A DNA stretch of 64,000 nucleotides from a virus. The position numbers were made by a program, and so were the translations under genes. The notes beneath the pieces were generated by a model. The model was not told the origin of the DNA, did no database searches, and saw only the letters and a program-made list of their open reading frames with translations. Shown here piece after piece: positions 26-59,083 of this stretch. The stretch covers positions 6,852 to 70,851 of the IMG/VR virus record IMGVR_UViG_3300025362_000007. One strand, given 5' to 3'. The number at the start of each line of letters is the position of its first letter. Position 1 is the stretch's first letter.

Positions 26-2404
26 GTGGAACTAAAAATGACTAGGCAATTTATAGCCGCTAAGAAAGGAGATACCTATGTAGATTACACAATAAAACCT
101 ATAGAGATACTGACTTCTATACACGACATTAAAAATGTATTACTAACCATGGAAACAGAGAAAATAGTGGCATTTGACTATGAGACAACAGGTATTCAAC
201 CATACAAGAAAGGGCATGAAATTATTTGCATGAGTGTAGCTACTTCTCGTAAGGCATATGCGTTTGAAAATACCAAAGCTATACTTCCTTATATACAACA
301 TTTTTTAACTAGTGATGTACCTAAAGTAATGCACAATGCAAAATATGAATTGATATGGAGTAAAGAACTAGCTAAAGTAGATGTAAATAATGTAATAGCA
401 GATACTATGCTTATTGCTCATAGTATAGATAATACTCCTGGAACTGTAGGGCTAAAACCTCAGACATTCTTTAACTTTGGTGTTGCTGGTTATGATGATA
501 CTATTGCACCACTATTAAAAGCAAAAGATAAATCTGTGCATAGCTTTAATTCTTTATATTATATGAAGCAACAAGGAGAACTAACCTATGTAATGGAAGA
601 ACTTTTAACCTACTGTGCTTTCGATAGTTTGTATACTATATGGTTGTATGAAAAGCAATTAGAACAGATATTACCACACATGCAACAAGGGATTGATATA
701 TTCTTAGAAGCAACCAAGGTATTTGCTGAAATAGAATATAGAGGAATGAGAATTGACATTGATATTGTACGTAAAAACATAAAGTTACTTACACTAAAAA
801 TGCAAGAATTAAAAGAACAAATATATGCTACAGAAGAAGTTAAAGCATGGAACAGAGAAACAGAGTTTAATTTTAATAGTAATAAGGATATGGGAGTATT
901 ACTCTATGAAATATTAGGGTATACACCGTATAAGGAAACTTCTAGTGGAGCAAACAGCACAGACAAGGAAGCATTAGAAAAGATTATAGAAAAAGAAGGA
1001 AGTGAGTTCCTTGTATTACTATTGGAATATAAGAAATTAGTAAAAATGAGGGACACTTATCTAGTAGGATTAGAAAGTGGGACATTAGATGGATATATTA
1101 GACCTAGTTTTAATTTGCATACTGTGCAGACTTTCAGAAGTTGCTTGGTTGGCAACACACCAATATCTACTATTAATGATACTATCCCAATAAAAGACGT
1201 TTTTATAGGAACACATGTAATGTGTGTTGATGAGAATAATAAGATTGTGCATAGAAAAGTTATATGGAGTGGGCTTACGGGACGTAGAAAAGTAATTAAA
1301 TTAAAACTAATCTACGCAGATTGTGCAGAGAAAACACTGCTTTGCACCGAAGAACATAAATTAAGGTGTTCAGATGGCACATATATTCAAGCACAAGATT
1401 CGTTGGGACACGTTATAAAAGGAGAAACTATAAATTATGCTGTGATGGCGATAGAAGCATTACCAGATAAAGTAGATGTGTATGATATAGAAGTAGAAGA
1501 ATTACATAATTTCTTTGCTAATGGCATCTGTGTGCATAATTCATCCTCCAACCCAAACTTTCAAAACGTGCCAAAAAGAGATAAGTTAGCATCAACAATG
1601 ATACGTTCTGCTTTCATCCCTGACGAAGGTGCTTTTATAGAGGAACTGGACTTTAGTAGTTTAGAGGTAAACATTTCACAGTGTTATAACCAAGATAAAA
1701 ACTTACTCAAGTATCTAACAGATCCTTCACACAATATGCACACAGATAGTGCTTGCGACATATTCCTAAGAACCAAAGAAACAATGCTTAAAGAAGAAAG
1801 GAGAAATACCAAAGGCGGGTTTGTGTTTGCCCAATCATATGGTTCTACATTTAAGAATTGTGCTAAGAATATGTGGGATAATATGGGACAAGTAAGTAAG
1901 AAACATTTAGCATCGAAAGGGTGTGTTAACTTAGATAAGTTCACTGATATAGTAGAAGAAGCAGAATATCAATTTTGGAATGTACGATTCAAAAGGTGGG
2001 GCCAATGGAAGAAAGAGAATTGGAGTGAGTACCTTAAAAAGGGATATATAGATACTTATACAGGGTTCAGGTTAAATGCTCTCATGGGCTCTACACAGGC
2101 TTCTAATGCTGCAATACAGGGGAGTGCTACACACTGTCTGCTTTTTGTACTTATGTTCTTACATATCTATACTAAACAGTTAGGGTTGAAGTCAAGGATT
2201 ATAGGTCAAATTCATGACTCGATAGTTTTAAATTTATTTCCCGAAGAGGAAGAGATTATCCATAAAATAGTTAAATTGGGCTTAGATAGATTAAGAGATG
2301 AATGGAAATGGGTTACAGTACAATTAACAATGGACTATGAGCAAACTCCTGTGAATGGAGATTGGAGTCAATTAGAAGAGAAAGGCGAGATAAGGAGTAA
2401 ATAA
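26..2404 (+). CDS. polA: Family A DNA polymerase with 3'-5' exonuclease domain and a mini-intein; the frame is open to the window edge, so it may start upstream
   Basis: ExoI FDYETTG, ExoII HNAKYE, ExoIII YCAFD; SSSNPNFQN, motif A LDFSSLE, motif C QIHDSIV; no stop in this frame between base 2 and 26. Confidence 0.95.
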   Translation: MELKMTRQFIAAKKGDTYVDYTIKPIEILTSIHDIKNVLLTMETEKIVAFDYETTGIQPYKKGHEIICMSVATSRKAYAFENTKAILPYIQHFLTSDVPKVMHNAKYELIWSKELAKVDVNNVIADTMLIAHSIDNTPGTVGLKPQTFFNFGVAGYDDTIAPLLKAKDKSVHSFNSLYYMKQQGELTYVMEELLTYCAFDSLYTIWLYEKQLEQILPHMQQGIDIFLEATKVFAEIEYRGMRIDIDIVRKNIKLLTLKMQELKEQIYATEEVKAWNRETEFNFNSNKDMGVLLYEILGYTPYKETSSGANSTDKEALEKIIEKEGSEFLVLLLEYKKLVKMRDTYLVGLESGTLDGYIRPSFNLHTVQTFRSCLVGNTPISTINDTIPIKDVFIGTHVMCVDENNKIVHRKVIWSGLTGRRKVIKLKLIYADCAEKTLLCTEEHKLRCSDGTYIQAQDSLGHVIKGETINYAVMAIEALPDKVDVYDIEVEELHNFFANGICVHNSSSNPNFQNVPKRDKLASTMIRSAFIPDEGAFIEELDFSSLEVNISQCYNQDKNLLKYLTDPSHNMHTDSACDIFLRTKETMLKEERRNTKGGFVFAQSYGSTFKNCAKNMWDNMGQVSKKHLASKGCVNLDKFTDIVEEAEYQFWNVRFKRWGQWKKENWSEYLKKGYIDTYTGFRLNALMGSTQASNAAIQGSATHCLLFVLMFLHIYTKQLGLKSRIIGQIHDSIVLNLFPEEEEIIHKIVKLGLDRLRDEWKWVTVQLTMDYEQTPVNGDWSQLEEKGEIRSK
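1142..1540 (+). mobile_element. Mini-intein (133 aa, no homing endonuclease) in DNA polymerase
   Basis: Starts CLVGNT, block B TEEH, ends VYDIEVEELHNFFANGICVHN followed by Ser; removal restores TFRS-SSSNPNFQN. Confidence 0.93.
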
Positions 2405-3321
2405 TGGAGATGTGGCAGTTGCAACAAAGGCAATCTTTACCTTTGGCACAAAAAATAGTTCTTTCACAGCAAAGAATAAAACAATGGTATTCTCATTACC
2501 AAGGGGATGTATATGTCTCATTTTCGGGGGGCAAAGATTCCACTGTGTTGCTACATTTAGTTCGCCAAATATACCCAAAAGTGCCTGCTGTTTTTATAGA
2601 CACGGGGCTTGAGTATCCAGAAATACGAGAATTTGTCAAAACTATCGATAATGTGGTGTGGGTAAAGCCCAAAGTGAATTTTAGGGATGTATTAGATAAA
2701 TATGGCTTTCCTATTATTAGCAAAGAAAATGCACAAAAAATAGCAGAGATAAGAAACACTAGTTCAGAAAAACTAAAAGAAAAAAGAATGTATGGTGACG
2801 ATAAAGGCAATGGTAAATTAGCTAACAAATGGAGATATGTTATAAATGCCCCTTTTAAAGTATCTGATAGATGTTGTCATATTATGAAGAAGTCGCCTAT
2901 CAAAACATATGAACATAAAACAGGTAATAAGCCTTATGTTGGTACAATGGCAGTAGACTCAAGTTTAAGAAATACTTCATACTTACAGCACGGGTGTAAT
3001 TCGTTTGATGGTAATCGACCTATGTCAACCCCCATAGCTTTTTGGAGAGAAAGAGACATCTGGCAATATATTGACGAATTAGAATTACCCTATTCTAAAA
3101 TATATGACATGGGATATGAGAGAACTGGTTGTATGTTTTGTATGTTTGGGGTACATTTAGAAGGACAACCTAATAGATTTCAAAAAATGGCAATAACACA
3201 TCCTAAACAATATGATTATTGTATAAATAAATTAGGTTGCGGAGAAGTTATGAATTTTATAGGAGTACCCTATAAAGAAAAAGTAAAAATAGAAAATCAT
3301 TCATTTTTTAATGAAGAATAA
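2404..3321 (+). CDS. PAPS reductase family (PP-loop) protein, probably Fe-S
   Basis: SFSGGKDS, DTGLE, RCC and ERTGCMFC motifs. Confidence 0.88.
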   Translation: MEMWQLQQRQSLPLAQKIVLSQQRIKQWYSHYQGDVYVSFSGGKDSTVLLHLVRQIYPKVPAVFIDTGLEYPEIREFVKTIDNVVWVKPKVNFRDVLDKYGFPIISKENAQKIAEIRNTSSEKLKEKRMYGDDKGNGKLANKWRYVINAPFKVSDRCCHIMKKSPIKTYEHKTGNKPYVGTMAVDSSLRNTSYLQHGCNSFDGNRPMSTPIAFWRERDIWQYIDELELPYSKIYDMGYERTGCMFCMFGVHLEGQPNRFQKMAITHPKQYDYCINKLGCGEVMNFIGVPYKEKVKIENHSFFNEE

Positions 3322-4305: not shown

Positions 4306-4880
4306 AAATTAGTAATGTAGAAGTTTTTGGATTAGAAAGAAGTGCAAGAGCAAGTGGGTATCCTATGCTCACATCTATTAAAGCACAAGAAGTTAATGAA
4401 GTTAAAGATTATGCTAGAATGGGTAAGTTAGCAAAAGTGCCTACAGGTAGTGGGCATGACAATGCTTTGAAGGGTGTAAGAGTTATGTTCGATATAAATT
4501 ATCCTCAATATTTTACACCACAATTACAAAGATATAATTTTATAGATATTATTTCAAGCCAAAGCAAAATGCATAAATTGGTAAAGATGGATATTGATAA
4601 AAGTTGTAATAAATATGTTACCAATGAAATATTAAGCATAGTAGACATATACAAACAAGATTATATAGATAATCCTTCTTATAAGAATTTTATGAGACTG
4701 TTGAGCAACACCCCACTGGGTTTCGAGCTTACCATGCGCATATCTACTAACTACTTGCAGTTAAAGACTATATATCAACAAAGGAAAAATCATAAATTGA
4801 AAGAAGATTGGGGTTCGTTTCGTGATATGATTAAAGCACTACCACATAGTGAGTGGATAACAGGAGAAGCAAATGGCTAA
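4299..4880 (+). CDS. Phage protein, possibly ThyX-like fold
   Basis: SGHDNALK, QLQRY, SQS and NYLQL...QRKNH loosely resemble ThyX motifs; canonical RHR absent. Confidence 0.4.
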   Translation: MVEISNVEVFGLERSARASGYPMLTSIKAQEVNEVKDYARMGKLAKVPTGSGHDNALKGVRVMFDINYPQYFTPQLQRYNFIDIISSQSKMHKLVKMDIDKSCNKYVTNEILSIVDIYKQDYIDNPSYKNFMRLLSNTPLGFELTMRISTNYLQLKTIYQQRKNHKLKEDWGSFRDMIKALPHSEWITGEANG

Positions 4881-5280
4881 AAATCTCAAAGTACACTTTA
4901 CGAGTGCATCAGACCAATATAGTACACCTACAGATGTTTACGAAAAACTAAACAAGGAATTTCACTTTGACTTTGACCCTTGTCCACTAGCAGATCCTCC
5001 GTTATTTGATGGGCTATCTACTGATTGGGGGGGGGTAAACTACGTAAACCCTCCATATTCACAAATAAAACTATGGTGCAAGAAAGCGTACGAAGAGTGG
5101 CAAAAGGGGAAAACTGTAGTGATGTTGATTCCATCGAGAACAGATACGAGATATTGGCATGATTATATTATGAAGGCGACAGAGATACGATTCATAAAAG
5201 GTAGATTAAAGTTTGGTGGAATGAAGAACTCAGCCCCGTTTCCATCAGCAATAATAATTTTTAAACACCCTATATGTTGA
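4873..5280 (+). CDS. Phage Dam-type DNA N6-adenine methyltransferase
   Basis: YSTP, FDFDPC, NPPYS, LIPSRTDT, FIKGRLKF, APFPS motifs. Confidence 0.88.
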   Translation: MAKNLKVHFTSASDQYSTPTDVYEKLNKEFHFDFDPCPLADPPLFDGLSTDWGGVNYVNPPYSQIKLWCKKAYEEWQKGKTVVMLIPSRTDTRYWHDYIMKATEIRFIKGRLKFGGMKNSAPFPSAIIIFKHPIC

Positions 5281-5378
5281 CTTCATCACATAGCGGGGGC
5301 TAAAAACACAGAAAAGGTCTGTAAAATGTTGTATTATATAGACATAACAATGAGGATTAAAAAAGGAGAAACGAGAAG

Positions 5379-6065
5379 ATGAATACAGTACACCTGATCG
5401 ACAACATGGAATTTATGAAGGGGATATCGGATAAGTATTTCGAGCTGGCGATAATCGATCCGCCGTATGGGATTGGTATGGATAACTCTAATAAACGTAC
5501 AAAACCGTCAAGACCAAATAGTTATACTGATTATCCAGATTTTAGATACCATGAGTCTAAATGGGATAACTCTATACCGACAAAAGAATATTTTGATGAA
5601 TTGTTTAGGATATCAGTAAACCAAATAATATGGGGAGCAAATTACATGTGCCAATATCTACCATCAGGGTATGGTTGGATTTTCTGGAACAAACTTAACG
5701 GAGAAAATAACTGTTTTTCAGACGGCGAATTTGCCTTCGCTTCTAGGGGAGTGCAAAGCAGATATATTGCTATATCTCAATTCGATAAATTAAGGGGTGG
5801 TAAGGATAGAATCCACCCCACCCAGAAACCTGTTTCCCTATATAAGTTTCTACTCAAAAACTACGCCAAGCCCAATGACAAGATATTTGACAGTCATGTT
5901 GGAAGTGGCTCAAGCCGTATAGCTTGTTACGATATGGGGTTTGATTTCGAGGGTTGTGAGCTTGACCCCGATTATTGGAAAGCTCAAGAGGAACGATTCG
6001 AACAACATACAATGCAAGGGGATTTGTTCTCAGGCTCAGACCTGCAGGAATTAATCTATACTTGA
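5379..6065 (+). CDS. N4/N6 DNA methyltransferase (beta class)
   Basis: DPPYG, HPTQKP, DSHVGSGSS motifs. Confidence 0.92.
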   Translation: MNTVHLIDNMEFMKGISDKYFELAIIDPPYGIGMDNSNKRTKPSRPNSYTDYPDFRYHESKWDNSIPTKEYFDELFRISVNQIIWGANYMCQYLPSGYGWIFWNKLNGENNCFSDGEFAFASRGVQSRYIAISQFDKLRGGKDRIHPTQKPVSLYKFLLKNYAKPNDKIFDSHVGSGSSRIACYDMGFDFEGCELDPDYWKAQEERFEQHTMQGDLFSGSDLQELIYT

Positions 6066-6090
6066 CATTACGGTATGGCGGTGGTACAAT
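6062..6090 (+). promoter_or_regulatory. Sigma70-type promoter
   Basis: TTGACA-17-TACAAT with extended -10 TG. Confidence 0.75.
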
Positions 6091-6109
6091 GAAATAAAGG
6101 AGAAGTAAA

Positions 6110-6784
6110 TTGAAAGTCTTAGAGTTGTTTTGTGGGACTAAGTCCATAAGCAAAGAGTTCAAGAAAGCAGGGCATGAAACCTACACAGTAGATTGGAATG
6201 TTGAGTTCAATCCTACATTGCAAGCAGACATCTCTACACTCACAAAAGAACAAGTGTTAGAATTGTGTGAAGGGTATCCTGATGTTATATGGATTTCTCC
6301 AGATTGTACCAGCTATTCTGTTGCGGCAATATATCGACATAGGAAAAAAGAAGCAAATGGTAATTTAAAAGCCACTAGTGAGTATGCTAAATTTTGTGAT
6401 ATGACAAATGCACATGTGCTTGATTTAGTAAAAGAACTAAACCCTAAATATTACTTTATAGAAAATCCTAGAGGTGCTTTACGTAAGATGAATTTTATGC
6501 AAGAATTACCTAGGTATACACTGACATATTGTCAATACGGAGATACTAGACAAAAGCCTACAGACATATGGACAAACCATCCAAACCCAAGGTTCAAGCC
6601 TATGTGCAAGCCAGGAGCTCCTTGCCATGTAGCGGCCCCTAGAGGCTCACGTACTGGCACACAAGGAATTAAAGGCGCTAGGGACAGAGCAATCATTCCA
6701 GAAGCCCTGTGCAAGCACATAGTAGAAATAAGTGAAGAATCCCTAGACGAAGTACAATCCACAACTTTCTTCAATATTAATTAA
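6110..6784 (+). CDS. Small C5-cytosine methyltransferase-like protein
   Basis: LELFCGT (motif I), SPDC (IV-like), IENP (VI). Confidence 0.8.
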   Translation: MKVLELFCGTKSISKEFKKAGHETYTVDWNVEFNPTLQADISTLTKEQVLELCEGYPDVIWISPDCTSYSVAAIYRHRKKEANGNLKATSEYAKFCDMTNAHVLDLVKELNPKYYFIENPRGALRKMNFMQELPRYTLTYCQYGDTRQKPTDIWTNHPNPRFKPMCKPGAPCHVAAPRGSRTGTQGIKGARDRAIIPEALCKHIVEISEESLDEVQSTTFFNIN

Positions 6785-6841
6785 AATAGTGCTTGTGTAT
6801 CTACACTAAGTATGATATAGTTGTACTTGAAGGAGAAAGAA

Positions 6842-7060
6842 ATGGAAAATGAAGAATATACTACTATAATAGTTACAAAAGAAGAACTTTCTGTTGTACT
6901 CAAAACTCTATTAGCTTTTAGGTATATGGGCAATACTAGCGAAAGTAAAGCAATCCACAGTATGCTCGATAAAATAGACAGAATATACGAGGCAAGATAC
7001 AAACAAAAGAAAGTAGAAGTACAACGGATGGATATATTAAAGGAATGTAATGAAAAGTAA
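6842..7060 (+). CDS. Hypothetical protein
   Basis: AAGGAG RBS before ATG 6842. Confidence 0.55.
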   Translation: MENEEYTTIIVTKEELSVVLKTLLAFRYMGNTSESKAIHSMLDKIDRIYEARYKQKKVEVQRMDILKECNEK

Positions 7061-7400
7061 AGCACAACAATTTACCGATATGGTAAGAAAATGGCAAAAG
7101 GAACTAGGATTGATGTCTTGGGAAATATTTATAGAAAGTGGGGTATCTGATGAAAATAGAGCATGGGTGAATGTCCATGCTTCAGGGTTGATTGCTACAG
7201 TATCCTATAATAAAAAATGGATACAAACAGCAAACAAAGATGAATTAGAAAGGGTAGCTTTCCACGAATGTTTCGAGATATTAATGATGAATATTGATAT
7301 GGATATGCGTAAATATTATTCAACTACACATATAGAAACTAAAATTCACGAAATTATTAGAACCATGGAGAATGTTATACTAGGACAAAAGGGGGTATAA
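7050..7400 (+). CDS. Hypothetical protein, possible zincin-like (HExxE)
   Basis: AFHECFE motif; operon packing. Confidence 0.45.
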   Translation: MKSKAQQFTDMVRKWQKELGLMSWEIFIESGVSDENRAWVNVHASGLIATVSYNKKWIQTANKDELERVAFHECFEILMMNIDMDMRKYYSTTHIETKIHEIIRTMENVILGQKGV

Positions 7401-7401
7401 A

Positions 7402-7614
7402 ATGAATATTGAATGGGAATACAAGTACAGGAGTTGCAGTGCTATAATTGGCAACTACACTTTAACAATAAACAGAGGGGCATATAATTTTATATGGCTA
7501 GTAGAAAAAGATGATAAAGAAGTTGCTACGGGAATAACCAATGAGTACGACACTGCCAGAGAGCTGTGTAGCATAGTAGTAGAGAAACTAGTAAAAGCAG
7601 AATATAAAGTATAA
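7402..7614 (+). CDS. Hypothetical protein
   Basis: Operon packing. Confidence 0.55.
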   Translation: MNIEWEYKYRSCSAIIGNYTLTINRGAYNFIWLVEKDDKEVATGITNEYDTARELCSIVVEKLVKAEYKV

Positions 7615-7623
7615 GGAGTAGAA

Positions 7624-7935
7624 ATGAAGATAGATGAAATCGTAAATAGTTGTTGGGCGTTTGAGGCTGACAAGATGGTAAAAGCAGAAGCAAATAGGGC
7701 TGTGTACAACAAGTACAAGCATTTGGTAAAAAGATACAGAGAACACTTATCACAAGAAGAGTTAGATAATTTTATTTGCATCAAATCTAAAATGCCCACT
7801 TATACTACAGCCCATTATGAGGTGAGAACTAACATCATTTGCAGTAATGATCTTAAAGCATTGATGTGTGATGGGGGTAACTTGTGTTTTGGCTATAGTT
7901 CAAGTGGAATTAATTTTAATATTCATACAGATTAA
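7624..7935 (+). CDS. Hypothetical protein
   Basis: AAGGAGTAGAA RBS. Confidence 0.6.
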   Translation: MKIDEIVNSCWAFEADKMVKAEANRAVYNKYKHLVKRYREHLSQEELDNFICIKSKMPTYTTAHYEVRTNIICSNDLKALMCDGGNLCFGYSSSGINFNIHTD

Positions 7936-7945
7936 GGAGTAGAAT

Positions 7946-8530
7946 ATGTTGGTGGTAGTGACAGGTAAAAAAAGAAGCGGTAAAGATACGTTGGGTGATT
8001 ATTTAGTTGATACATATGGGTGCGCAAAAGCTAGACCATTGGCAGTATTCAAAGAAGCATTTACATCTTGGTTCGATTGGGATGAACGACATATGAATGG
8101 GGAACTAAAAGAAGTAGTCGATGAAAGGTGGGGGTTCAGTCCACGTAGGTTGATGCAAGTTTTTGGTACTGAATTGATGAAATATGATTTAGGTGATAGG
8201 TTGCCACAGTATCGTGAAACTTGTGCTTATGATATTTGGGTACAGAGTTTTCTAATATGGTATTTGAAACAAGATAGGAATAGAGATTATGTATTGACAG
8301 ATATGAGGTTTCCAAATGAGCAAGATAGAATAAAAGACGAATTGAAAGATGAAGTTGTATTTGTGAAAACTATTTCAGATAGAAGTCCACAAGATGAACA
8401 CGAAAGTGAAAGTTATTTTGACCAACTCACATCAGACTTTTCTATTGTAAATAATGGTTGGGATACATACAAGGAATACTACACTAATATAGATAGCTTA
8501 ATGGATAATATTAAATGGTTGAGGGGATAA
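7946..8530 (+). CDS. Deoxynucleoside monophosphate kinase (T4 gp1-like)
   Basis: GKKRSGKDT, SPRRLMQVFGTE, TDMRFPNE, HESE. Confidence 0.9.
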   Translation: MLVVVTGKKRSGKDTLGDYLVDTYGCAKARPLAVFKEAFTSWFDWDERHMNGELKEVVDERWGFSPRRLMQVFGTELMKYDLGDRLPQYRETCAYDIWVQSFLIWYLKQDRNRDYVLTDMRFPNEQDRIKDELKDEVVFVKTISDRSPQDEHESESYFDQLTSDFSIVNNGWDTYKEYYTNIDSLMDNIKWLRG

Positions 8531-8531
8531 A

Positions 8532-9788
8532 ATGAACGTACTAAGTTTGTTCGATGGAATTTCCGTAGGAAGGGTAGCTCTAGAAAAAGCCAACATACAG
8601 GTAGATAAATATTACTCTAGTGAGATAGATAAATACGCTATTCAAGTAGCAGATAATAATTGGTCAAATAATATAAAGCTAGGCGATGTTACTAAGTGGA
8701 AAGAATGGGATATTGATTGGGCTAGTATCGATCTACTCATTGGGGGAAGTCCCTGCACCGGGTTCAGTTTTTCAGGCAAACAATTAAACTTTAATGACCC
8801 CCAAAGTAAACTATTCTTTGTGTACGCAGATATACTTCATCATTTACAGAAAGTAAATCCTAATGTGAAATTCTTATTAGAAAATGTAAAGATGAAAAAA
8901 GAATATCAAGATAAAATAAGTGAAATTATAGGAGTAGAACCTGTAGAAATAAATAGTGCCCTGCTCTCAGCTCAATCAAGACGCAGGCTATATTGGAAAA
9001 ACTGGTATGTACCACAACCAGAGGATAAGGGAATTATGTTAAAAGATATTGTGCATGAGAATACCTGGACGGACGCAGACAAATCATATTGTATTGATGC
9101 TAATTACTGGAAAGGTGGAAATGCCAAACAATATTATGAGAAAGCTAGGAGGCAGCAAGTATACGATAAGTTGAAAGAGTACATCGTCCCTTTCGACAAA
9201 ACACTAAAGATACTAGACAAGGAAGTAGAACGTGGTAAAGTGGGGTATTTTAGAAAAGACTCACAAGCCAACAGAGTATATTATATCCACGATAAAGCAG
9301 TTACACTCACAGGAGAAGCTGGTGGTGGGGCAGCTAAGATGGGGCAATATTTATTTGCAGACATTACAAAGAATTATTTGCAATATGATTTGTCGGGTAA
9401 AGGGCATAAAAGCCAAGACCAAAGGGCATATTATTTAGATGGTAAACATGGAACATTGCCTGCTACTGGGGGAGAAACTAAATGTAAGGTATTATTTGGT
9501 TGTATCACACCAGACAGAGTAGAAAAACGACAGAACGGGCAACGATTTAGCGAAGGTAAGAAATTCTACACACTTACAGCACAGGATCAACATGGAATAT
9601 TGATAGAAGGCTACATACGGAAACTTACTCCAATAGAAGCAGAGAGACTGCAAACATTGCCAGATAACTATACAGAGGGAATAAGCAATTCGCAACGTTA
9701 TAAGTGTTTAGGCAACTCGTTTACATCAGATGTGATAGCACACATACTGAGTAATATAGATAACACAGATAATATTTCATTTTTTTAA
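8532..9788 (+). CDS. C5-cytosine DNA methyltransferase with long repetitive variable region
   Basis: LSLFDG, GGSPC, LENV, QSRRRLYW, RKLTPIEAERLQT, LGNS. Confidence 0.93.
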   Translation: MNVLSLFDGISVGRVALEKANIQVDKYYSSEIDKYAIQVADNNWSNNIKLGDVTKWKEWDIDWASIDLLIGGSPCTGFSFSGKQLNFNDPQSKLFFVYADILHHLQKVNPNVKFLLENVKMKKEYQDKISEIIGVEPVEINSALLSAQSRRRLYWKNWYVPQPEDKGIMLKDIVHENTWTDADKSYCIDANYWKGGNAKQYYEKARRQQVYDKLKEYIVPFDKTLKILDKEVERGKVGYFRKDSQANRVYYIHDKAVTLTGEAGGGAAKMGQYLFADITKNYLQYDLSGKGHKSQDQRAYYLDGKHGTLPATGGETKCKVLFGCITPDRVEKRQNGQRFSEGKKFYTLTAQDQHGILIEGYIRKLTPIEAERLQTLPDNYTEGISNSQRYKCLGNSFTSDVIAHILSNIDNTDNISFF

Positions 9789-9797
9789 AGAGGTATA

Positions 9798-9826
9798 TTG
9801 ACACTTTTACAAAAATTGTATATATT
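9798..9826 (+). promoter_or_regulatory. Sigma70-type promoter for the downstream non-coding RNA
   Basis: TTGACA-17-TATATT followed by an ORF-free structured region. Confidence 0.7.
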
Positions 9827-9829
9827 AGG

Positions 9830-10304
9830 GATAGATAGGATAACTACCTACCTTACCCCTGGGGATGACCATCGTATTGGACGAAGATACTTAAACTCAG
9901 GGCAAAGTATCATTACTCTTTAGTTAAGAGCGTCCAGTAGGGTGGTTTTTCCTTTCTACGGGCAACTGAACCGAAAAGGTTAGTGGTTACGAGTATACCA
10001 GCAGTCCATAAAACGTAGGGTAGCTATTAGATAGGAAGCCGTAAATTTGCCTAACACCATGTCAGAGGAAAAGACCCTAAGCACCTCATATTGAGGGATG
10101 CTTGTGAGACGGACAATGGCAGGACTGATGGTTGCTATACATCAGTTGTCTTGGGCTCGCAGTGCTAATGCTAGTATGAGAGTGTTAGCTTTATCTGTTT
10201 ACCTATGCTCTAGGCTCGCCTCTATCGGATTGAGGAAAAGGCTTAGGGGGGGTACTGACAGGTAGCGATAGCTGTATCCACACTTAGGTAACTACCTAAC
10301 TATC
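9830..10304 (+). ncRNA. Candidate large structured non-coding RNA (~475 nt)
   Basis: No ORF in the track; more GC-rich than flanks; 5' GATAGATAGGATAACTACCTA pairs imperfectly with 3' TAGGTAACTACCTAACTATC; many internal helices and a likely pseudoknot. Confidence 0.75.
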
Positions 10305-10356
10305 AGCCTTTAATAATACTACATATATTATATATAAATATTTATAAAATTTCCTC

Positions 10357-10385
10357 TTGACAAACTATTTCCCATGCTATACACT
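10357..10385 (+). promoter_or_regulatory. Sigma70-type promoter
   Basis: TTGACA-17-TACACT. Confidence 0.7.
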
Positions 10386-10404
10386 GAAACACAAGGAGAA
10401 CGAA

Positions 10405-10740
10405 ATGAAAACAATACCAAGAGCAGTAGATTACAATTTACTGTATGCAACTGATGATGAGATAAGAGTACTAAGGGACTCTTTAGTTTGTTACGAAAGA
10501 AAACTCGATGCAAGGCGGAGAACTGCTTTAGATGAGTTAGCAAGTAGCCGTGACAAAAACACTGGTGCGGTACAGCCAAGGACAATAGAACTGGTAACTA
10601 TCATTGAAAAAGCAAAAGCAACACAAAAAGTAGCAGGAAAGTTACGAGATACTATACGTGATACATGTTTTGCTAATCGTAGTGCTGATGCTAATTTCGA
10701 TGCAGTAGACAACTTTGGAATGGAGGTAGCAGATGAATAG
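10405..10740 (+). CDS. Hypothetical protein
   Basis: AAGGAGAACGAA RBS before ATG 10405. Confidence 0.6.
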   Translation: MKTIPRAVDYNLLYATDDEIRVLRDSLVCYERKLDARRRTALDELASSRDKNTGAVQPRTIELVTIIEKAKATQKVAGKLRDTIRDTCFANRSADANFDAVDNFGMEVADE

Positions 10741-10997: not shown

Positions 10998-11306
10998 ATG
11001 GCTAATATATTATTTGAGTTAATAAAGCAAAAATACATAGATTATTTGAAATCGGTCAAGGGGGATATAAATAAACCTTTCGCTACATACGTAGATGTGT
11101 ACATAGAAGAAGCTAAGGCGTCCACCACTAAAGAAGAATTAGATAAAGTTAGTTATGCACTAAGCTTATCATTTAAAGCCATGAAGACAGCCTATGGTGG
11201 GGGAGTAAATAACTCAGAGTCATTTGATAATTTAGATCTTGTGAAAATAGTAACTGGTGATGGAAAGGAGATGTTTATGGAACGTCCTAAAGGTAAAAAA
11301 CTATGA
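10998..11306 (+). CDS. Hypothetical protein
   Basis: GAGG RBS before ATG 10998. Confidence 0.55.
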   Translation: MANILFELIKQKYIDYLKSVKGDINKPFATYVDVYIEEAKASTTKEELDKVSYALSLSFKAMKTAYGGGVNNSESFDNLDLVKIVTGDGKEMFMERPKGKKL

Positions 11307-11608
11307 AAGTTAAAGTAAATATTAGTAGTAGTGATTGTAGCTACAAATTTGAGGTTATATGTCCTTTCTGTGGGAATGAATATAGAGATAGTTGGGAATT
11401 ACCTGTTGGAGAAGATGAGTTAGATTGTGGTGCGTGTGGGAGAACTTTTATATTCTCTAAAGAAATTTCTGTAAATTATTCTTCTTACATAAAATCTATA
11501 GAAGGTATAGATTGGAAAGAAGGGGCTGAGGTAGAAGACGGCTTAAATGAGGAGGAAGAAGAATGGGCTAATAAGAATGGTAAAGTCCCTTGTGAGGTAG
11601 TAAAATGA
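11303..11608 (+). CDS. Zinc-ribbon protein
   Basis: CPFCG...CGACG. Confidence 0.6.
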   Translation: MKVKVNISSSDCSYKFEVICPFCGNEYRDSWELPVGEDELDCGACGRTFIFSKEISVNYSSYIKSIEGIDWKEGAEVEDGLNEEEEEWANKNGKVPCEVVK

Positions 11609-11964
11609 GTTTTAGAGAACACATGCAAGAAGTACACAAAAGATACACTAATATGTCTGACGAAGAATTGAGGGCAACTGCTATGCGTAGTGGAAAAACA
11701 AACCAAACTTACTTTCAATTTAAAATGGCATCATTTAGTAATGATCCTATTGTATTTAATAGAATAGTTATTATAGATAATATCTGTAATATAATGCGTC
11801 AGAAAGAAATAACTACAGCACAACTAGCTAAATCGATAAAGATGCACAAGCTAAAGTTACATAATATTCTTAATAACTATGTTAACTTCACTTTAGACGA
11901 GTTAAGTGTAATAACGGAAGCATTAGATAAAAAATTAGTAATGAAATTGGAAGATAAAAAATGA
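11605..11964 (+). CDS. XRE-family helix-turn-helix protein
   Basis: C-terminal ITTAQLAKSI...FTLDELSVITEALD pattern. Confidence 0.65.
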   Translation: MSFREHMQEVHKRYTNMSDEELRATAMRSGKTNQTYFQFKMASFSNDPIVFNRIVIIDNICNIMRQKEITTAQLAKSIKMHKLKLHNILNNYVNFTLDELSVITEALDKKLVMKLEDKK

Positions 11965-12972: not shown

Positions 12973-13109
12973 AAAGCAACAGAGCATTTGAAGAAGTTAA
13001 AATAGCACACCTGTGATGCCTCTGATGCAAGCATAATTTCATGGGTTATATAGAATTTGGTAGGGATGTTTTATAAATTCTCACCAATGACTCTTAGCAA
13101 AGACTAAGG

Positions 13110-13234
13110 TAAGATGAGTAGTGGAATGGTAAACCACAATCATGGTCGGTAGAGGAAGATACTGCGAACAACAGCCTCAAAGGAAAAGCCGATTGCCCAT
13201 GACCTAAAAACAGGTTCAATTCCTGTCCATCTTA
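13110..13234 (+). ncRNA. tRNA-like RNA A with a long helix in place of the anticodon arm
   Basis: Terminal stem TAAGATG/CATCTTA; D-arm GTGG-AATGGTAAA-CCAC; T-arm ACAGG-TTCAATT-CCTGT; central TCATGG/CCATGA, TCGGT/GCCGA, GAGG/CCTC. Confidence 0.75.
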
Positions 13235-13368
13235 ATTTGTCACAGACGTGTGGATCGAAACTCTTCGCAAGCCTCTTAATAATGCTCAAATGGCGGAGTG
13301 GATGAGGGAACGTTAGCCCCAAACTACAACGGAAAAGGGAGTGTAGTTGACTGCTGGGAAAGACTAGC

Positions 13369-13453
13369 TAAAGTAAGAATGTGGTGGACACATGGGGTGA
13401 GTTAAAGACTTGGGATTCCCCAACTAGCAACACTAGTATTTCTGCTTACTTTA
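13369..13453 (+). ncRNA. Cloverleaf-like RNA B without canonical T-loop
   Basis: TAAAGTAAG/CTTACTTTA encloses ATGTG/CACAT, GGGG/CCCC and ACTAG/CTAGT hairpins. Confidence 0.6.
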
Positions 13454-13474
13454 CGGACACTGGGAAAGACTAGG

Positions 13475-13568
13475 TAGTATGGTGGCTATCTATGAAAATA
13501 AATAGTTACTGGGAGTGGTGGCTTAATACGTAGGGTCACCTGTGTGAGTTCAAATCTTGCCCATACTA
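13475..13568 (+). ncRNA. tRNA-like RNA C with elongated D and central arms
   Basis: TAGTATGG/CCATACTA; T-arm GTGAG-TTCAAAT-CTTGC; GGTGGCTT/GGGTCACC central stem. Confidence 0.7.
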
Positions 13569-13602
13569 GGCTCTAGCTTTTAGTTAGAGGGAATTATTGC
13601 TG

Positions 13603-13778
13603 TACCATGTATGTACGTAGGGAGTACTAAACGTTAGGCAATCTATAGCCTAGAAAAAGAGCGGAGGATGGATAAATGAGACTGCGATTCCATAGGAGTA
13701 AATTCTACACCGCAAAGATGTTACGTTAAGTTAATAGGAATATTAACAGCAGAGGGGTTCAACTCCCCTCACATGGTA
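13603..13778 (+). ncRNA. tRNA-like RNA D (176 nt) with a large multibranched insert
   Basis: TACCATGT/ACATGGTA; GTAC-GTAGGGA-GTAC; T-arm AGGGG-TTCAACT-CCCCT; insert closed by AACGT/ACGTT with TAGGC/GCCTA and GCGG/CCGC. Confidence 0.7.
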
Positions 13779-13805
13779 GAATACGACACTTTGGAAAGAC
13801 AAAGG

Positions 13806-13906
13806 TAGCATAATGGTGGTGTAGGATAACCACACTGGCCAGTTTGGGGGTGAAGATATCCACTTCGTAAACAACAGAGAAACAGGTTCAAGTCCTGTCT
13901 ATGCTA
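13806..13906 (+). ncRNA. tRNA-like RNA E with extended central arm
   Basis: TAGCATA/TATGCTA; D-arm GTGGT-GTAGGATA-ACCAC; T-arm ACAGG-TTCAAGT-CCTGT; central CTG/CAG, GTTT/AAAC, GGGGTG/CACTTC. Confidence 0.75.
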
Positions 13907-13982
13907 AAGGTCGGATAATTACCGAATGAACTACGGAGATTTGGGGTAGCCGTAGAGAGATTGACAAAATTGCCCATCCATT

Positions 13983-14056
13983 GCTACAGTAGCTCAGTTG
14001 GTCAGAGCACGTGACTTGTAATCTCGGTGTCGTCAGTTCGAATCTGACTTGTAGCT
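13983..14056 (+). tRNA. tRNA-Thr(TGT), CCA not encoded
   Basis: GCTACAG/TTGTAGC, TAGCTCAGTTGGTCAGAGC, loop CTTGTAA, GTTCGAATC. Confidence 0.9.
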
Positions 14057-14070
14057 TTTAAGAGTATTTT

Positions 14071-14121
14071 GGAAGTGAGCCTAATGGTGGGAAACTGTCT
14101 TGAAAACAGTCGATGGTATCC
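14071..14121 (+). pseudogene. 5' part of tRNA-Ser(TGA); T-arm and 3' acceptor strand missing
   Basis: GGAAGTG start as in the intact Ser gene, ACTGT-CTTGAAA-ACAGT anticodon arm, no GTTCRA downstream. Confidence 0.6.
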
Positions 14122-14171
14122 AACGATGTTCACGTTAGAAGCGGAACAAGAGAGTAAGAGAAAGTAAAAAT

Positions 14172-14242
14172 GCATTTGTGGCATATTGGCTGTGCGCTAG
14201 CCTTCCAAGCTAGTGAAGAGAGTTCGATTCTCTCCAAGTGCT
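14172..14242 (+). tRNA. tRNA-Gly(TCC), CCA not encoded
   Basis: GCATTTG/CAAGTGC, CTAGC-CTTCCAA-GCTAG, GAGAG-TTCGATT-CTCTC. Confidence 0.88.
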
Positions 14243-14252
14243 TATAGTAATA

Positions 14253-14331
14253 GGGGGCGTAGCTCAATCGGCAGAGCACTGGGTGCACCATAACGTGGCA
14301 GTGGATAGGAGTTCGAGTCTCCTCGGCTCCT
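14253..14331 (+). tRNA. Atypical tRNA with enlarged, bulged anticodon arm; identity undetermined (CAT in loop)
   Basis: Canonical TAGCTCAATCGGCAGAGC D-arm and AGGAG-TTCGAGT-CTCCT T-arm; central CTG-GGTG-CAC-CATAAC-GTG-G-CAG. Confidence 0.6.
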
Positions 14332-15045: not shown

Positions 15046-15639
15046 GTGTTATATTCAATAGGGAAATTTGCAAAACAGATAGGGGTAACAACCGCTACAC
15101 TACGAAATTGGGATGCTAGTGGGGAACTGACCCCACAAAAAGTTACAAATGGTGGTACTCGTTATTATTCAGAACAGCAATTAAATAGTTATATGAACAA
15201 AACTATTAGTAGCAAAAAAGAGACATATATATATGCAAGAGTATCAAGTAATAATCAAAAAAAGGATTTGGTAAATCAAGTAGATTTTTTAAGACAATAT
15301 TGTAATGCAAAAGGGTACATTGTAAATGTATTAACTGATACAGGTAGTGGATTAAATTATAAAAGAAAAAATTGGAATGTACTACTTGATTTAGTAATTA
15401 AGGGCAGTGTAGATCGAATAGTAATAGCGCACAAAGATAGATTTGTTCGTTTTGGGTGTGACTGGTTTTTCTCTCTTTGTGAAAAACATGGGTGTATTAT
15501 AGAGGTAGTAAATAATGACACACTAAGCCCCCAAGAAGAAATGGTTCAAGATTTAATTTCTATTATTCACGTATTCAGTTGCCGTATATATGGGTTACGA
15601 AAGTACAAAGAAAAATTACAGAATGATGAAAGCATATAA
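15046..15639 (+). CDS. tnpA: IS607 transposase (MerR-like HTH plus serine recombinase)
   Basis: TLRNWD...GGTRYY, YARVSS, DRFVRFG, LISIIHVFSCRIYG. Confidence 0.95.
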   Translation: MLYSIGKFAKQIGVTTATLRNWDASGELTPQKVTNGGTRYYSEQQLNSYMNKTISSKKETYIYARVSSNNQKKDLVNQVDFLRQYCNAKGYIVNVLTDTGSGLNYKRKNWNVLLDLVIKGSVDRIVIAHKDRFVRFGCDWFFSLCEKHGCIIEVVNNDTLSPQEEMVQDLISIIHVFSCRIYGLRKYKEKLQNDESI

Positions 15640-16771
15640 AATAGAAATAAATCCTACAGAGGAACAGAAAACAAAGATAAACAAGACTATGGGGGTTTGT
15701 CGTTTTATTTATAATCTATATATTTCTAAAAATAAGGAAGAGTACGAAACTACTAAAAAGTTTATAAGTGCCTATGATTTTAGTAAATATATAAATAATG
15801 TTTTTATTAAGGAGAATCCTTCCTATGCTTGGATTAAAGATGTATCAAGTAAATCAGTAAAACAATCTGTATGTAATGCTGAAAAGGCATTTAAATTATT
15901 TTTTAATAAAAAGGCATGCTTTCCTAAATACAAGAAAAAGCATGTATCTAACATAAAAATGTATTTGCCTAAAAACAATAATACAGATTGGGCAATAGAA
16001 AGACATAGGGTAAAAATACCCACATTAGGCTTTGTTAGATTAAAAGAATTTGGATATATACCTAAGGATGCTGTTGTATCTAGTGGTGCAGTAAGTAAAG
16101 AGGCTGATAAGTATTTTGTTTCTATTTTAGTGAAAGAAGATAGGGTATATACTAGCAAGAAAGGGAAACAAGCAATAGGAATAGATTTAGGGATAAAAAC
16201 GTTTGCTGTATGTTCTGACGGCAGAACTTTTAAGAATATAAACAAGACAGCTAAGATAAAAGCACTAGAAAAGAAATTAAAAAAAGAACAAAAAGCTTTC
16301 AGTAGAAAGTTAGGATCTCGAAAAAAGGAGGAGTCTAATAAAAATTTAGATAAAAATAGAATACGAGTACAAAGATTACATAGGCGGTTACGTAATATTC
16401 GTCAAGAATATGTAAAATTTGTGGTAAATTCACTTGTGAAAGCCAATAATTTACCTGTATACATTTCTATTGAAGATTTGAATGTCAATGGTATGATGAA
16501 AAACAGACATTTGAGCAAAGCTATCCAAAAGCAAAATTTTTATTATTTTAGAACTAAACTTATAGAAAAATGCAACAAATATGATGTTGAGGTAAGGGTT
16601 ATAGACAGATTCTACCCAAGCAGTAAAACTTGTAGTATTTGCGGAGCATATAAATCTGATTTGAAGTTAAGTGATAGAGTATATAAATGTGGGTGTGGTG
16701 GTAGTTTAGATAGGGATTTAAATGCAAGTATAAATATTAGGGATTGCAAGATATATAAAGTAGCAATTTAA
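15623..16771 (+). CDS. tnpB: RNA-guided endonuclease TnpB
   Basis: RuvC GIDLG, IEDL, DRDLNAS all intact; CSICG/CGCG zinc finger. Confidence 0.95.
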   Translation: MMKAYKIEINPTEEQKTKINKTMGVCRFIYNLYISKNKEEYETTKKFISAYDFSKYINNVFIKENPSYAWIKDVSSKSVKQSVCNAEKAFKLFFNKKACFPKYKKKHVSNIKMYLPKNNNTDWAIERHRVKIPTLGFVRLKEFGYIPKDAVVSSGAVSKEADKYFVSILVKEDRVYTSKKGKQAIGIDLGIKTFAVCSDGRTFKNINKTAKIKALEKKLKKEQKAFSRKLGSRKKEESNKNLDKNRIRVQRLHRRLRNIRQEYVKFVVNSLVKANNLPVYISIEDLNVNGMMKNRHLSKAIQKQNFYYFRTKLIEKCNKYDVEVRVIDRFYPSSKTCSICGAYKSDLKLSDRVYKCGCGGSLDRDLNASINIRDCKIYKVAI

Positions 16772-16935
16772 AGCATTTATATATGTGTACTGTGGGCTAA
16801 CACAGGAATTTACGATTGTGGACATCTACACAAACAATAGTAGCATTATGCGAGATTGGGGTGGTTGAAGCAATAAAACTCAAAAATATATAATTTTATA
16901 GATTTTTGTTAGCAGGAATTGGTATGATATTTGAA
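16772..16935 (+). ncRNA. Putative TnpB omegaRNA scaffold (IS right end) plus flanking guide
   Basis: Non-coding 3' end of the IS with CTGTG/CACAG hairpin; guide would be AATTGGTATGATATTTGAA after CAGG. Confidence 0.55.
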
Positions 16936-17368: not shown

Positions 17369-17446
17369 GGGGTAAAATTGGTTTCGACAACTATTAAGTC
17401 TTGAAAGAGAAATAGTTGGAAGTGGGTTCGATTCCCACTTGCTCCA
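17369..17446 (+). ncRNA. tmRNA tRNA-like-domain-only RNA (78 nt)
   Basis: GGGGTAA/TTGCTCC acceptor with G3-U70 and A73; stemless D-loop AATTGGTTTCGAC; short P2 CAACTATT/AATAGTTG; T-arm GTGGG-TTCGATT-CCCAC; no tag ORF. Confidence 0.8.
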
Positions 17447-17703
17447 AATTAGTACATAGAAGGAAGTAGAAATATGGAACAATATTCAAACATATATTTC
17501 TTCATTACAAAATGATAAGGATATTGATTTAAAGATGGATGATAAAGATAAAGCTACAACTCATGGATTTGATAAATATTCTTTTCGGAATCCAATAAAA
17601 TAATGCTTGACACTCAATAAGTACTGTGGTAGAGTTAATAAATAGCAACGAATATTTCCACTACACTGTATATATAGTGCATTATGGAAAGGAAGGAGTA
17701 GAA

Positions 17704-58925: not shown

Positions 58926-59083
58926 CTAAATAAAAAAAGTGTATCATTCGTGTTGGATAGTTACTCCCAACCCCATTGTATAGATAATGGTTGAATAATA
59001 CACTTTTTTATTCTATACTTTATTTCAGTTAACTACTCTGATAATATTATTATACCATACACAGAGCTTTATGTCAATATAGG

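What the first reader, a model, noticed from the sequence alone, without database searches (positions are those of the whole stretch)
9798..10304. Large (~475 nt) ornate non-coding RNA with its own promoter, paired ends and a pseudoknot
Seen: an ORF-free block starts just after TTGACA-17-TATATT. Its ends form an imperfect ~20-bp helix (9830-9850 with 10285-10304). Nested helices include GACCATC/GGTGGTT, TGGACG/CGTCCA, GATACTT/AAGTATC, CTCTT/AAGAG, CTACG/CGTAG, AAGCA-CCTCA/TGAGG-TGCTT, ACTGATG/CATCAGT, GCTAATGCT/AGTGTTAGC and long-range TGTCAG/CTGACA. The loop CTCAGGG of the GATACTT hairpin is complementary to upstream CCCTGGG, giving a pseudoknot. G-U pairs favour RNA on the + strand. Known: phages carry large ornate RNAs of unclear function (ROOL, GOLLD), often near tRNAs. 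I cannot assign this one to either, so it may be a new class.
Basis: partly seen in the sequence, partly recalled or inferred. Interest (0 to 1): 0.85.

Follow-up and report, generated by a model that had tools for sequence, protein, structure and literature searches.

The report
Orphan structured RNA candidate in salt-lake phage
A gene-free, GC-rich 475-base block behind a strong promoter in an uncultured salt-lake phage probably makes a structured non-coding RNA, but only its first ~100 bases fold convincingly and no relatives exist to prove the rest.

Summary
The block is real. It has a consensus promoter (9798-9826) with no ribosome site or usable ORF behind it, and a sharp GC island (0.45 against a window mean of 0.36). 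In this window only the tRNA-cluster region and one window over the nearby abiF-motif region are as GC-rich. No Rfam family matches, even at E<=10, and there is no trace of a protein.

The + strand folds better than shuffles (z -3.4), but about 85% of that excess comes from one Y-shaped domain, 9861-9953. That domain has z about -5 to -6, is among the most stable local folds in the 64 kb, and is specific to the + strand. The rest is only mildly structured.

The paired ends are no better than shuffles and consist mostly of two copies of a near-palindromic 14-15-mer. The pseudoknot is marginal.

I found no homologue in any collection searched. Public runs carry only identical copies and none is an RNA run, so covariation and expression could not be tested.

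Verdict: a probable new phage ncRNA (about 0.5). The "475-nt ornate RNA with pseudoknot" is unproven (about 0.2). Rivals are an attenuator or leader, operator DNA, and a dead spacer.

The parts
8532..9788 (+). Upstream neighbour: C-5 cytosine DNA methyltransferase, complete. It is the last gene of a cluster of four methylase genes.
   Evidence: Pfam PF00145 at 1.7e-40. PHROG 116 at 3.9e-60. Relatives align over residues 1-410 of 418.
9798..9826 (+). Promoter P1, TTGACA-17-TATATT. The inferred start of transcription is near 9833.
   Evidence: 11 of 12. It is one of 3 perfect matches to TTGACA-N17-TATANT in the window. The window holds 14 sites with at most 1 mismatch, against 3.85 expected. Other sites of this motif sit just ahead of AAGGAG plus a start codon. 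P1 has neither within 60 nt.
9836..9850 (.). Copy 1 of the near-palindrome, TAGGATAACTACCTA. It overlaps the inferred transcript start.
   Evidence: Direct repeat D1, copies at 9841-9853 and 10289-10301, spacing 448. Pattern search.
9861..9953 (+). Domain 1: a Y-shaped fold. A basal stem of 21 pairs (5+7+9), interrupted by two single-nucleotide breaks, carries two hairpins. There are 34 pairs, 5 of them G-U. The 13-nt loop holds CUCAGGG.
   Evidence: -40.1 kcal/mol, z -5.03, 0 of 200 shuffles as good, and the MFE structure is 29% of the ensemble. The - strand gives z -1.28. It ranks 1 of 2556 window-strands of 103 nt, on a grid set to include it. A register-free RNALfold scan gives z -5.74, 7th of the 55 hits at z <= -4 on both strands.
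9945..9957 (+). U-rich tract, UUUUUCCUUUCU, directly after the domain 1 stem. It could act as an intrinsic-terminator tail.
   Evidence: The T-run was flagged by the terminator scan. A terminator role is inferred, not shown.
9960..10151 (+). Domain 2: a long-range helix, GGGCAACUG/CAGUUGUCU, encloses several short helices, including the AAGCA-CCUCA/UGAGG-UGCUU hairpin.
   Evidence: Helix probabilities are 0.8-0.9. The 200-nt fold gives z -1.94 on + and -0.68 on -. Support is weak.
10164..10189 (+). Hairpin GCUAAUGCU/AGUGUUAGC with 2 G-U pairs, followed by UUUAUCUGUUU.
   Evidence: Probability 0.59. Listed as terminator-like.
10192..10265 (+). Domain 3: a long hairpin whose core is CUCUAGGCU/GGCUUAGGG with inner CCUC/GAGG. 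It includes the run of seven G.
   Evidence: Core probability is 0.98-1.0. RNALfold gives z -3.93. A 61-nt fold gives z -2.01 on + and -1.03 on -.
10285..10298 (.). Copy 2 of the palindrome, TAGGTAACTACCTA, with perfect 6+2+6 dyad symmetry.
   Evidence: There is no third copy at up to 2 mismatches in the window, and the total number of matches is no more than chance gives.
10305..10404 (+). AT-rich spacer (GC 0.26) holding promoter P2, 10357-10385, then AAGGAG and the ATG at 10405.
10405..10740 (+). Downstream neighbour: a 111-aa ORF with no known family and its own promoter.
   Evidence: No Pfam or PHROG hit. No relative in viral contigs or metagenome contigs.

Best explanation
The block most likely encodes a free-standing non-coding RNA, transcribed rightwards from the sigma-70-type promoter at 9798-9826, with a start near 9833.

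Its secure part is a ~95-nt Y-shaped 5' domain (9861-9953). The GC-rich 350 nt that follow (to about 10304) are probably part of the same RNA and fold into looser long-range domains.

Shown here: the promoter match, the absence of coding signal, the GC island, and the strand-specific stability of domain 1.

Inferred: that the promoter fires, where the RNA ends, and that the 3' two-thirds are structured.

The function is not known. My working guess is an early phage RNA that acts in trans as a structured particle or decoy. This would resemble ROOL and GOLLD, which are phage RNAs of unknown role found near tRNA islands, or RNA mimics that counter host defence. That part is speculation.
For: 1. 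Promoter without a gene. P1 is a perfect match to a motif that is enriched in the window (14 sites against 3.85 expected; 0 of 100 shuffles reach 14). Elsewhere that motif sits just ahead of AAGGAG plus a start codon (5 of the 8 + strand sites printed). P1 has no such signal, and the next gene has its own promoter.

2. GC island. 9830-10304 has GC 0.4505, against 0.359 +/- 0.031 for 475-nt windows. Only 0.8% of windows reach that value. Among the 25 highest windows listed, all others lie at 13751-14301 (running into and across the tRNA cluster) or at 13101, over the abiF-motif region. The flanks are 0.32 and 0.26. Long GC-rich intergenic regions in AT-rich genomes are an established predictor of structured RNAs (PMC8723152 and PMC11109978; abstracts as shown in the search listing).

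3. Folding. The whole block gives z -3.41 on + and -1.62 on -. Domain 1 gives z -5.03 on + and -1.28 on -. It ranks 1 of 2556, and 7th of the 55 RNALfold hits at z <= -4. There are 13 local structures at z <= -2 on + and 6 on -. Domain 1 has 5 G-U pairs among 34.

4. Not protein.
- All six frames, read with X at stops, gave 0 families in PHROGs and in Pfam at E<=1.
- The three + frames gave no tblastn match in 50,697 phage records.
- Frame +1 against 1.84 billion representative proteins returned only a 49-aa call identical to this DNA. That protein is the only member of its cluster and was seen on 1 contig.

5. No tRNA or tmRNA was called, even with relaxed ARAGORN settings.
Against: - There is no homologue, so no covariation. 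See Tried and rejected for the searches.
- No RNA evidence could be obtained.
- About 85% of the excess folding energy is in domain 1. 103-nt windows over 9956-10308 give z between -1.3 and +0.7.
- The whole-block z lies within the tail of ordinary coding windows: 5 of 128 reach z <= -3.2.
- RNALfold gives roughly 25 hits at z <= -5 in 128 kb of strand, some of them inside genes. Domain 1 is therefore strong but not singular.
- Domain 1 ends in a U-run, so transcripts might stop there.
- No terminator is seen at 10304.
- The ends pair no better than 11.9% of shuffles.
Confidence: 0.5

Rival explanations
1. Attenuator or short leader RNA. P1 plus domain 1 form a promoter-proximal, branched intrinsic terminator. 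This gives a ~120-nt RNA, or a regulated read-through point in the manner of lambda PR'-tR' (6S RNA) or an antitermination site. On this reading the rest of the block is not an ornate RNA.
For: - The domain 1 stem is followed at once by UUUUUCCUUUCU.
- The same phage has a second perfect promoter, 59077-59049 on the - strand, followed by another Y-shaped stem with an A-tract and a U-tract at 59013-58927 (z -6.3), just ahead of a gene.
- Nearly all the thermodynamic signal is in domain 1.
Against: - This leaves 350 nt of the most GC-rich, ORF-free DNA in the region (GC 0.461) unexplained.
- The next gene has its own promoter only 20 nt ahead of its start.
- Branched terminators are unusual (general knowledge).
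- The U-tract is interrupted by C.
Confidence: 0.2
2. DNA-level control region. The two copies of the dyad-symmetric TAGG(A)TAACTACCTA are operator sites for a phage repressor, for example the Cro/C1-type HTH protein at 11605-11964. One lies over the P1 start and the other upstream of P2, and they may loop the 448 bp between them. The "paired ends" are a by-product of the palindrome occurring twice. A related variant is a transcription-primed replication origin.
For: - Copy 2 is a perfect 6+2+6 palindrome, and copy 1 overlaps the inferred +1.
- The inner pairs of the terminal helix, and its central A-C/C-A mismatch, are exactly what two copies of one palindrome would give (sequence).
- AT-rich stretches flank the block.
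- An HTH gene lies 1.3 kb downstream.
Against: - Copy 1 carries a one-base insertion that would upset operator spacing but is harmless as an RNA bulge.
- There is no third copy in 64 kb, and the total number of matches is no more than chance gives (9 found, 11.6 expected).
- Operators do not explain the GC island or the strand-specific domain 1.
- No iterons or other origin features were found.
Confidence: 0.1
3. Non-functional spacer. The block is a decayed or horizontally acquired fragment of higher-GC DNA that happens to lie behind a promoter. Its folding signal is chance.
For: - It is an orphan. No relative was found anywhere, in a phage that is itself nearly without relatives.
- The whole-block z-score falls within the tail of coding windows.
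- All public copies are identical, so no selection can be read from them.
Against: - No protein remnant was found in any frame.
- Domain 1 is among the most stable local folds in the window and is strand-specific.
- The GC island begins at domain 1 (9861), about 28 nt after the inferred transcript start, and ends at the AT-rich spacer (10305) that carries the next promoter.
Confidence: 0.15

Closest known systems
ROOL and GOLLD RNAs (large ornate RNAs of phages and prophages)
   Same: It is phage-encoded, several hundred nt long and ORF-free, and its function is unknown. It lies in an RNA-gene-rich part of the genome, with the first tRNA 3.7 kb downstream. ROOL and GOLLD are described as encoded in phages and prophages, often near tRNA islands (PMC12286853; passages read).
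   Different: Neither covariance model matches, even at E<=10. The RNA is smaller than GOLLD, many of whose members exceed 800 nt. It is not adjacent to tRNAs. It has no family and so no covariation-supported structure. Oligomer formation is untested.
Lambda PR'-tR' 6S RNA and other promoter-proximal terminator or antitermination leaders
   Same: A consensus promoter is followed within ~30 nt by a very stable stem that ends in a U-run. The arrangement occurs a second time in this phage, ahead of a gene on the - strand.
   Different: The stem is branched. 350 nt of GC-rich non-coding sequence follow it. The next gene has its own promoter. The comparison with lambda rests on recalled textbook knowledge, not on a call.
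GC-rich intergenic-region candidates from the DIMPL / GC-IGR discovery pipeline
   Same: It is a long intergenic region, far more GC-rich than its AT-rich genome. That is the selection criterion those pipelines use (PMC8723152 and PMC11109978; abstracts in the listing).
   Different: Those pipelines go on to require homologues and covariation. None is available here.

Membership tests
ROOL RNA (Rfam) | A match to the family covariance model at or near its gathering score | tested here: not met
   There was no hit in the gathering scan of the whole window or at E<=10 on 9700-10420.
GOLLD RNA (Rfam) | A match to the family covariance model, whose conserved part is the 3' region | tested here: not met
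   no hit.
ROOL / GOLLD (as a kind) | A location in a phage or prophage, often beside a tRNA island | tested here: inconclusive
   The phage context is met. The nearest tRNA is 3.7 kb away, with about ten ORFs and a further ORF-free stretch in between.
ROOL / GOLLD / OLE (as a kind) | An elaborate secondary structure supported by covariation | not testable with these tools
   No homologue was found, and the public copies are identical.
Other known large RNAs (OLE, HEARO/omega RNA, RNase P, group I and II introns, tmRNA, rRNA fragments) | A match to an Rfam model | tested here: not met
   At E<=10 only sR43 (15.2 bits) and SpR10 (14.3 bits) appear, both far below their gathering scores. ARAGORN finds no tRNA or tmRNA with relaxed settings.
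Intrinsic terminator / attenuator | A stable stem followed directly by a U-rich tail, downstream of a promoter | tested here: inconclusive
   The stem and the U-run are present. However, the stem is branched and 93 nt long, outside the simple-hairpin definition the scan uses. Function was not tested.
MITE or other small mobile element | Several copies, terminal inverted repeats next to target-site duplications | tested here: not met
   There is a single copy in the 70.9-kb record. There was no match in the 1203 Bacillota genomes sampled, in the plasmids or in the phage records. No inverted repeat lies just inside the direct repeat (sequence).
Protein-coding gene or pseudogene | An open frame, or residual similarity to a protein | tested here: not met
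   The three - strand frames were tested only against Pfam and PHROGs.

The most novel reading that the evidence does not exclude
The block is the founding member of a new class of large (~475 nt) multi-domain phage RNA. It would be made early from its own promoter and act as a free RNA particle. Its ends would be clamped together, and it would carry a loop-helix pseudoknot (CUCAGGG with CCCUGGG) or self-association through the palindromic CCCCUGGGG, in the spirit of the ROOL and GOLLD assemblies. It would come from a hypersaline-lake phage lineage with almost no sequenced relatives.
Probability: 0.2. Interest if true: 0.75.

Novelty: new variant of a known kind. Interest (0 to 1): 0.4.

Why it matters
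If real, it adds an unclassified structured RNA to the short list of large phage RNAs whose roles are unknown. It would come from a habitat and a phage lineage that are barely sampled. The 95-nt Y-shaped domain is a compact, testable object for probing or structure work. The same genome stretch also holds an abiF-motif RNA with no abiF gene, tRNA-like elements and an RtcB ligase gene, so this phage may rely heavily on RNA tools against its host. As it stands it is a single-sequence candidate. Its value is as a lead for RNA-seq and homologue hunting, not as a discovery.

Tried and rejected
Homologue searches. All came back empty, or with short chance matches only:
- blastn (distant mode) against 50,697 phage records and 72,556 plasmids.
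- nhmmer and blastn on the 80 viral loci around methylase relatives.
- nhmmer and blastn on all 219 loci held at that point, including the 80 metagenome methylase loci.
- BLAST of 47 whole IMG/VR records. These were 46 of the 80 methylase-locus records plus the one portal relative. The best hit had E 0.024 over 22 nt.
- Exact patterns in viral contigs. A 26-mer gave 0 hits. A 16-mer gave 12 hits, all limited to the seed.
- Synteny probes. The downstream ORF had 0 relatives in viral and metagenome contigs. The DNA polymerase had 0. ORFs 7624-7935 and 11303-11608 had 0. The portal protein had 1 relative, on an 8-kb contig.
- BLAST of 10 genomes named through TnpB hits. The only match was 35 nt inside a coding region, which I read as chance.
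- BLAST of 401 genomes of the family of a Blautia genome, 401 of its phylum, and 401 of the class of an Anaerobacillus genome. All gave 0 at E<=0.001. These are samples of their groups, so the result is "not found in those searched".
- A single-sequence covariance model of domain 1. It matched only itself in the window and 0 of 30 IMG/VR records.
- Cluster look-up of the 49-aa ORF call: 1 member, 1 contig.

Sequencing runs:
- 11 runs hold the stretch or a part of it (5 hold half its words or more). All are on record as DNA. Ten are labelled salt lake metagenome and one metagenome. No RNA holder is listed.
- The contigs of 4 runs that lie on the block itself (about 9830-10304) show 0 other letters. 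The few short pieces that differ lie in the methylase gene or in the spacer after 10304. The one difference inside the block is an extra G in the G-run, in one contig of depth 2.6. So there is no population variation to test pairing.
- Parts of the block lacked cover in some runs.

Other ideas rejected:
- A target for the domain 1 loop elsewhere in the window: none.
- A hidden ORF under recoded stops.
- A CsrB-like GGA sponge. Counted by eye, there are about 12 GGA against about 8 expected, so no enrichment.

Tools not available:
- No supplementary files were opened.

Full report
**Where it lies.** The window is bases 6852-70851 of a 70.9-kb IMG/VR virus record, estimated 75% complete. The phage has a family A DNA polymerase, a Dda-like helicase, portal, terminase, an RtcB ligase and several tRNAs. 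It is nearly without relatives:
- The portal protein finds one IMG/VR contig, at 60% identity.
- The polymerase finds none there.
- In GenBank phages the polymerase finds only SPO1-like and similar phages, at about 24% identity.
- The public runs that carry the sequence are labelled salt lake metagenome (10 of 11).

The block sits between the last of four DNA methylase genes (8532-9788) and a run of small unknown ORFs that starts at 10405 with its own promoter.

**Is the observation there?** Yes, literally.
- All the quoted arms are at the stated positions.
- TTGACA-17-TATATT is at 9798-9826.
- No credible ORF lies in the block, and none appears with TGA, TAG or TAA recoded.
- With X at stops, none of the six frames matches Pfam or PHROGs at E<=1.
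- The three + frames match nothing in 50,697 phage genomes.
- Frame +1, against 1.84 billion representative proteins, finds only a 49-aa gene call made on this same DNA. That call is the sole member of its cluster and was seen on one contig.

**Is it more than chance?** Three signals say so.
1. The promoter motif is real in this phage. There are 14 sites with at most 1 mismatch, against 3.85 expected. Five of the eight + strand sites printed are followed within about 45 nt by AAGGAG and a start codon. P1 is a perfect match with nothing to translate.
2. The block is a sharp GC island. Its GC is 0.4505, against 0.359 +/- 0.031, and the flanks are 0.32 and 0.26. Only 0.8% of 475-nt windows are as GC-rich. 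Among the 25 highest listed, the others lie at 13751-14301 (running into and across the tRNA cluster) or at 13101, over the abiF-motif region. GC-rich long intergenic regions are the basis of a published discovery pipeline for structured RNAs (PMC8723152 and PMC11109978; abstracts seen in the listing).
3. The + strand folds better than shuffles (z -3.41) and better than the - strand (z -1.62).

**How far the folding evidence goes.** I calibrated z-scores on the window itself.
- For 486-nt windows, 128 window-strands give a mean z of -0.82, sd 1.13 and minimum -4.07. Five of them are at or below -3.2. The candidate is in the tail but not outside it.
- Splitting the block shows why. 9856-9958 alone gives -40.1 kcal/mol against -23.5 for shuffles, z -5.03, and its MFE structure is 29% of the ensemble. 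The opposite strand gives z -1.28.
- That is 16.6 of the 19.5 kcal/mol excess of the whole block.
- On a grid of 2556 window-strands of 103 nt it ranks first. The grid was set to include it, which favours it.
- A register-free RNALfold scan ranks it 7th among 55 hits at z <= -4. It comes after several hairpins that look like terminators and one tRNA-like element.
- The remainder is weak. Domain 2 gives z -1.94. 10152-10285 gives -1.44. The best local hairpin, 10192-10265, gives -3.9 by RNALfold. 103-nt windows give between -1.3 and +0.7.
- Known RNAs in the window (tRNAs, RAGATH-18, the abiF motif) also score near zero in off-register windows. A weak z is therefore not evidence against structure.

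- Seven helices are favoured in the ensemble, at 0.59-1.0. Three are not: CTACG/CGTAG, ACTGATG/CATCAGT and TGTCAG/CTGACA, all at <=0.06. A long-range GGGCAACUG/CAGUUGUCU helix (0.8) replaces two of them.
- The end helix is matched by 11.9% of shuffles.
- Its inner part is the automatic result of a near-palindrome, TAGG(A)TAACTACCTA, occurring at both ends 448 nt apart. That could equally be a pair of operator sites.
- The pseudoknot is the best partner of that loop within the RNA, but it reaches only p of about 0.026 before correction. It also competes with the extension of the domain 1 stem.

**Known families.** Rfam 15 gives nothing at gathering thresholds in the block, and only two chance-level hits at E<=10. 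It is therefore not ROOL, GOLLD, OLE, HEARO, RNase P, an intron or a tmRNA. ARAGORN agrees for tRNA and tmRNA. The resemblance to ROOL and GOLLD is one of kind only: a phage RNA of unknown role in an RNA-rich region (passages of PMC12286853).

**Homologues and expression.** Every route open to me was empty; the list is in Tried and rejected. The contigs of four public runs that lie on the block are identical to the window, except for one extra G in the G-run. No RNA run is listed. Covariation and transcription therefore remain untested. This is the main weakness of any claim here.

**Reading.**
- A promoter-driven structured ncRNA is the best single explanation (about 0.5). Domain 1 is its secure part, and the 475-nt extent rests mainly on the GC island.
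- A serious rival (about 0.2) is that domain 1, which ends in UUUUUCCUUUCU, is a branched terminator or attenuator. The phage has a second perfect promoter followed by a similar Y-shaped A-tract/U-tract stem ahead of a gene on the other strand.
- Operator DNA (about 0.1) explains the "paired ends" but not the composition or domain 1.
- A dead spacer (about 0.15) cannot be excluded for an orphan sequence.

**Limits.**
- Collection scans allow only exact patterns, so relatives below roughly 90% identity in IMG/VR or the metagenomes would be missed unless they were syntenic with the methylase.
- No supplements were read.

Noticed in passing
window 12973-13982: A second ORF-poor, GC-rich stretch lies just ahead of the tRNA cluster. 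It holds an abiF-motif RNA (13263-13299, 46.6 bits) with no abiF-type gene after it, which could be an anti-defence decoy. It also holds several T-arm-like GGTTCAAnTCC hairpins and a 140-nt branched structure at 13695-13834 (RNALfold z -6.2).
   Followed up: partly
window 58927-59077 (- strand): A perfect TTGACA-17-TATAAT promoter (59077-59049) is followed by a Y-shaped stem with an A-tract and a U-tract (59013-58927, z about -6.3), directly ahead of the gene 58925-57927. The arrangement resembles a promoter-proximal terminator used for late-gene antitermination.
   Followed up: partly
window 15046-16876: An IS607-like element inside the phage. It has a MerR-HTH plus serine-resolvase gene (15046-15639), TnpB (15590-16771; PHROG 506 at 8.7e-105) and a RAGATH-18 RNA right after it (16815-16876, 55 bits). 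The nearest TnpB relatives in genomes are Blautia, at 54% identity.
   Followed up: partly
window 4873-9788: Four DNA methyltransferase genes lie within 5 kb: Dam-like 4873-5280, N6/N4 5379-6065, and C5 at 6110-6784 and 8532-9788. A PAPS-reductase-like gene is at 2404-3321. Together they suggest heavy investment against restriction.
   Followed up: no
window 17369-17447 and 14253-14331: A 79-nt hit to the tmRNA model spans model positions 1-374, so it is only a tRNA-like part, and ARAGORN does not call it. One of the five Rfam tRNA hits (14253-14331) is also missed by ARAGORN at default settings.
   Followed up: no
window 62390-63652 (- strand): An RtcB-type RNA ligase gene (PHROG 1075 at 8.3e-114) in a phage with its own tRNAs and possible intron-bearing or tRNA-like elements. 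This could point to repair of host-cleaved tRNAs.
   Followed up: no
window 10246-10252: The run of seven G has one extra G in one contig of a 2010 run (depth 2.6). Within the block, all other laid contig pieces from four runs are identical to the window.
   Followed up: yes
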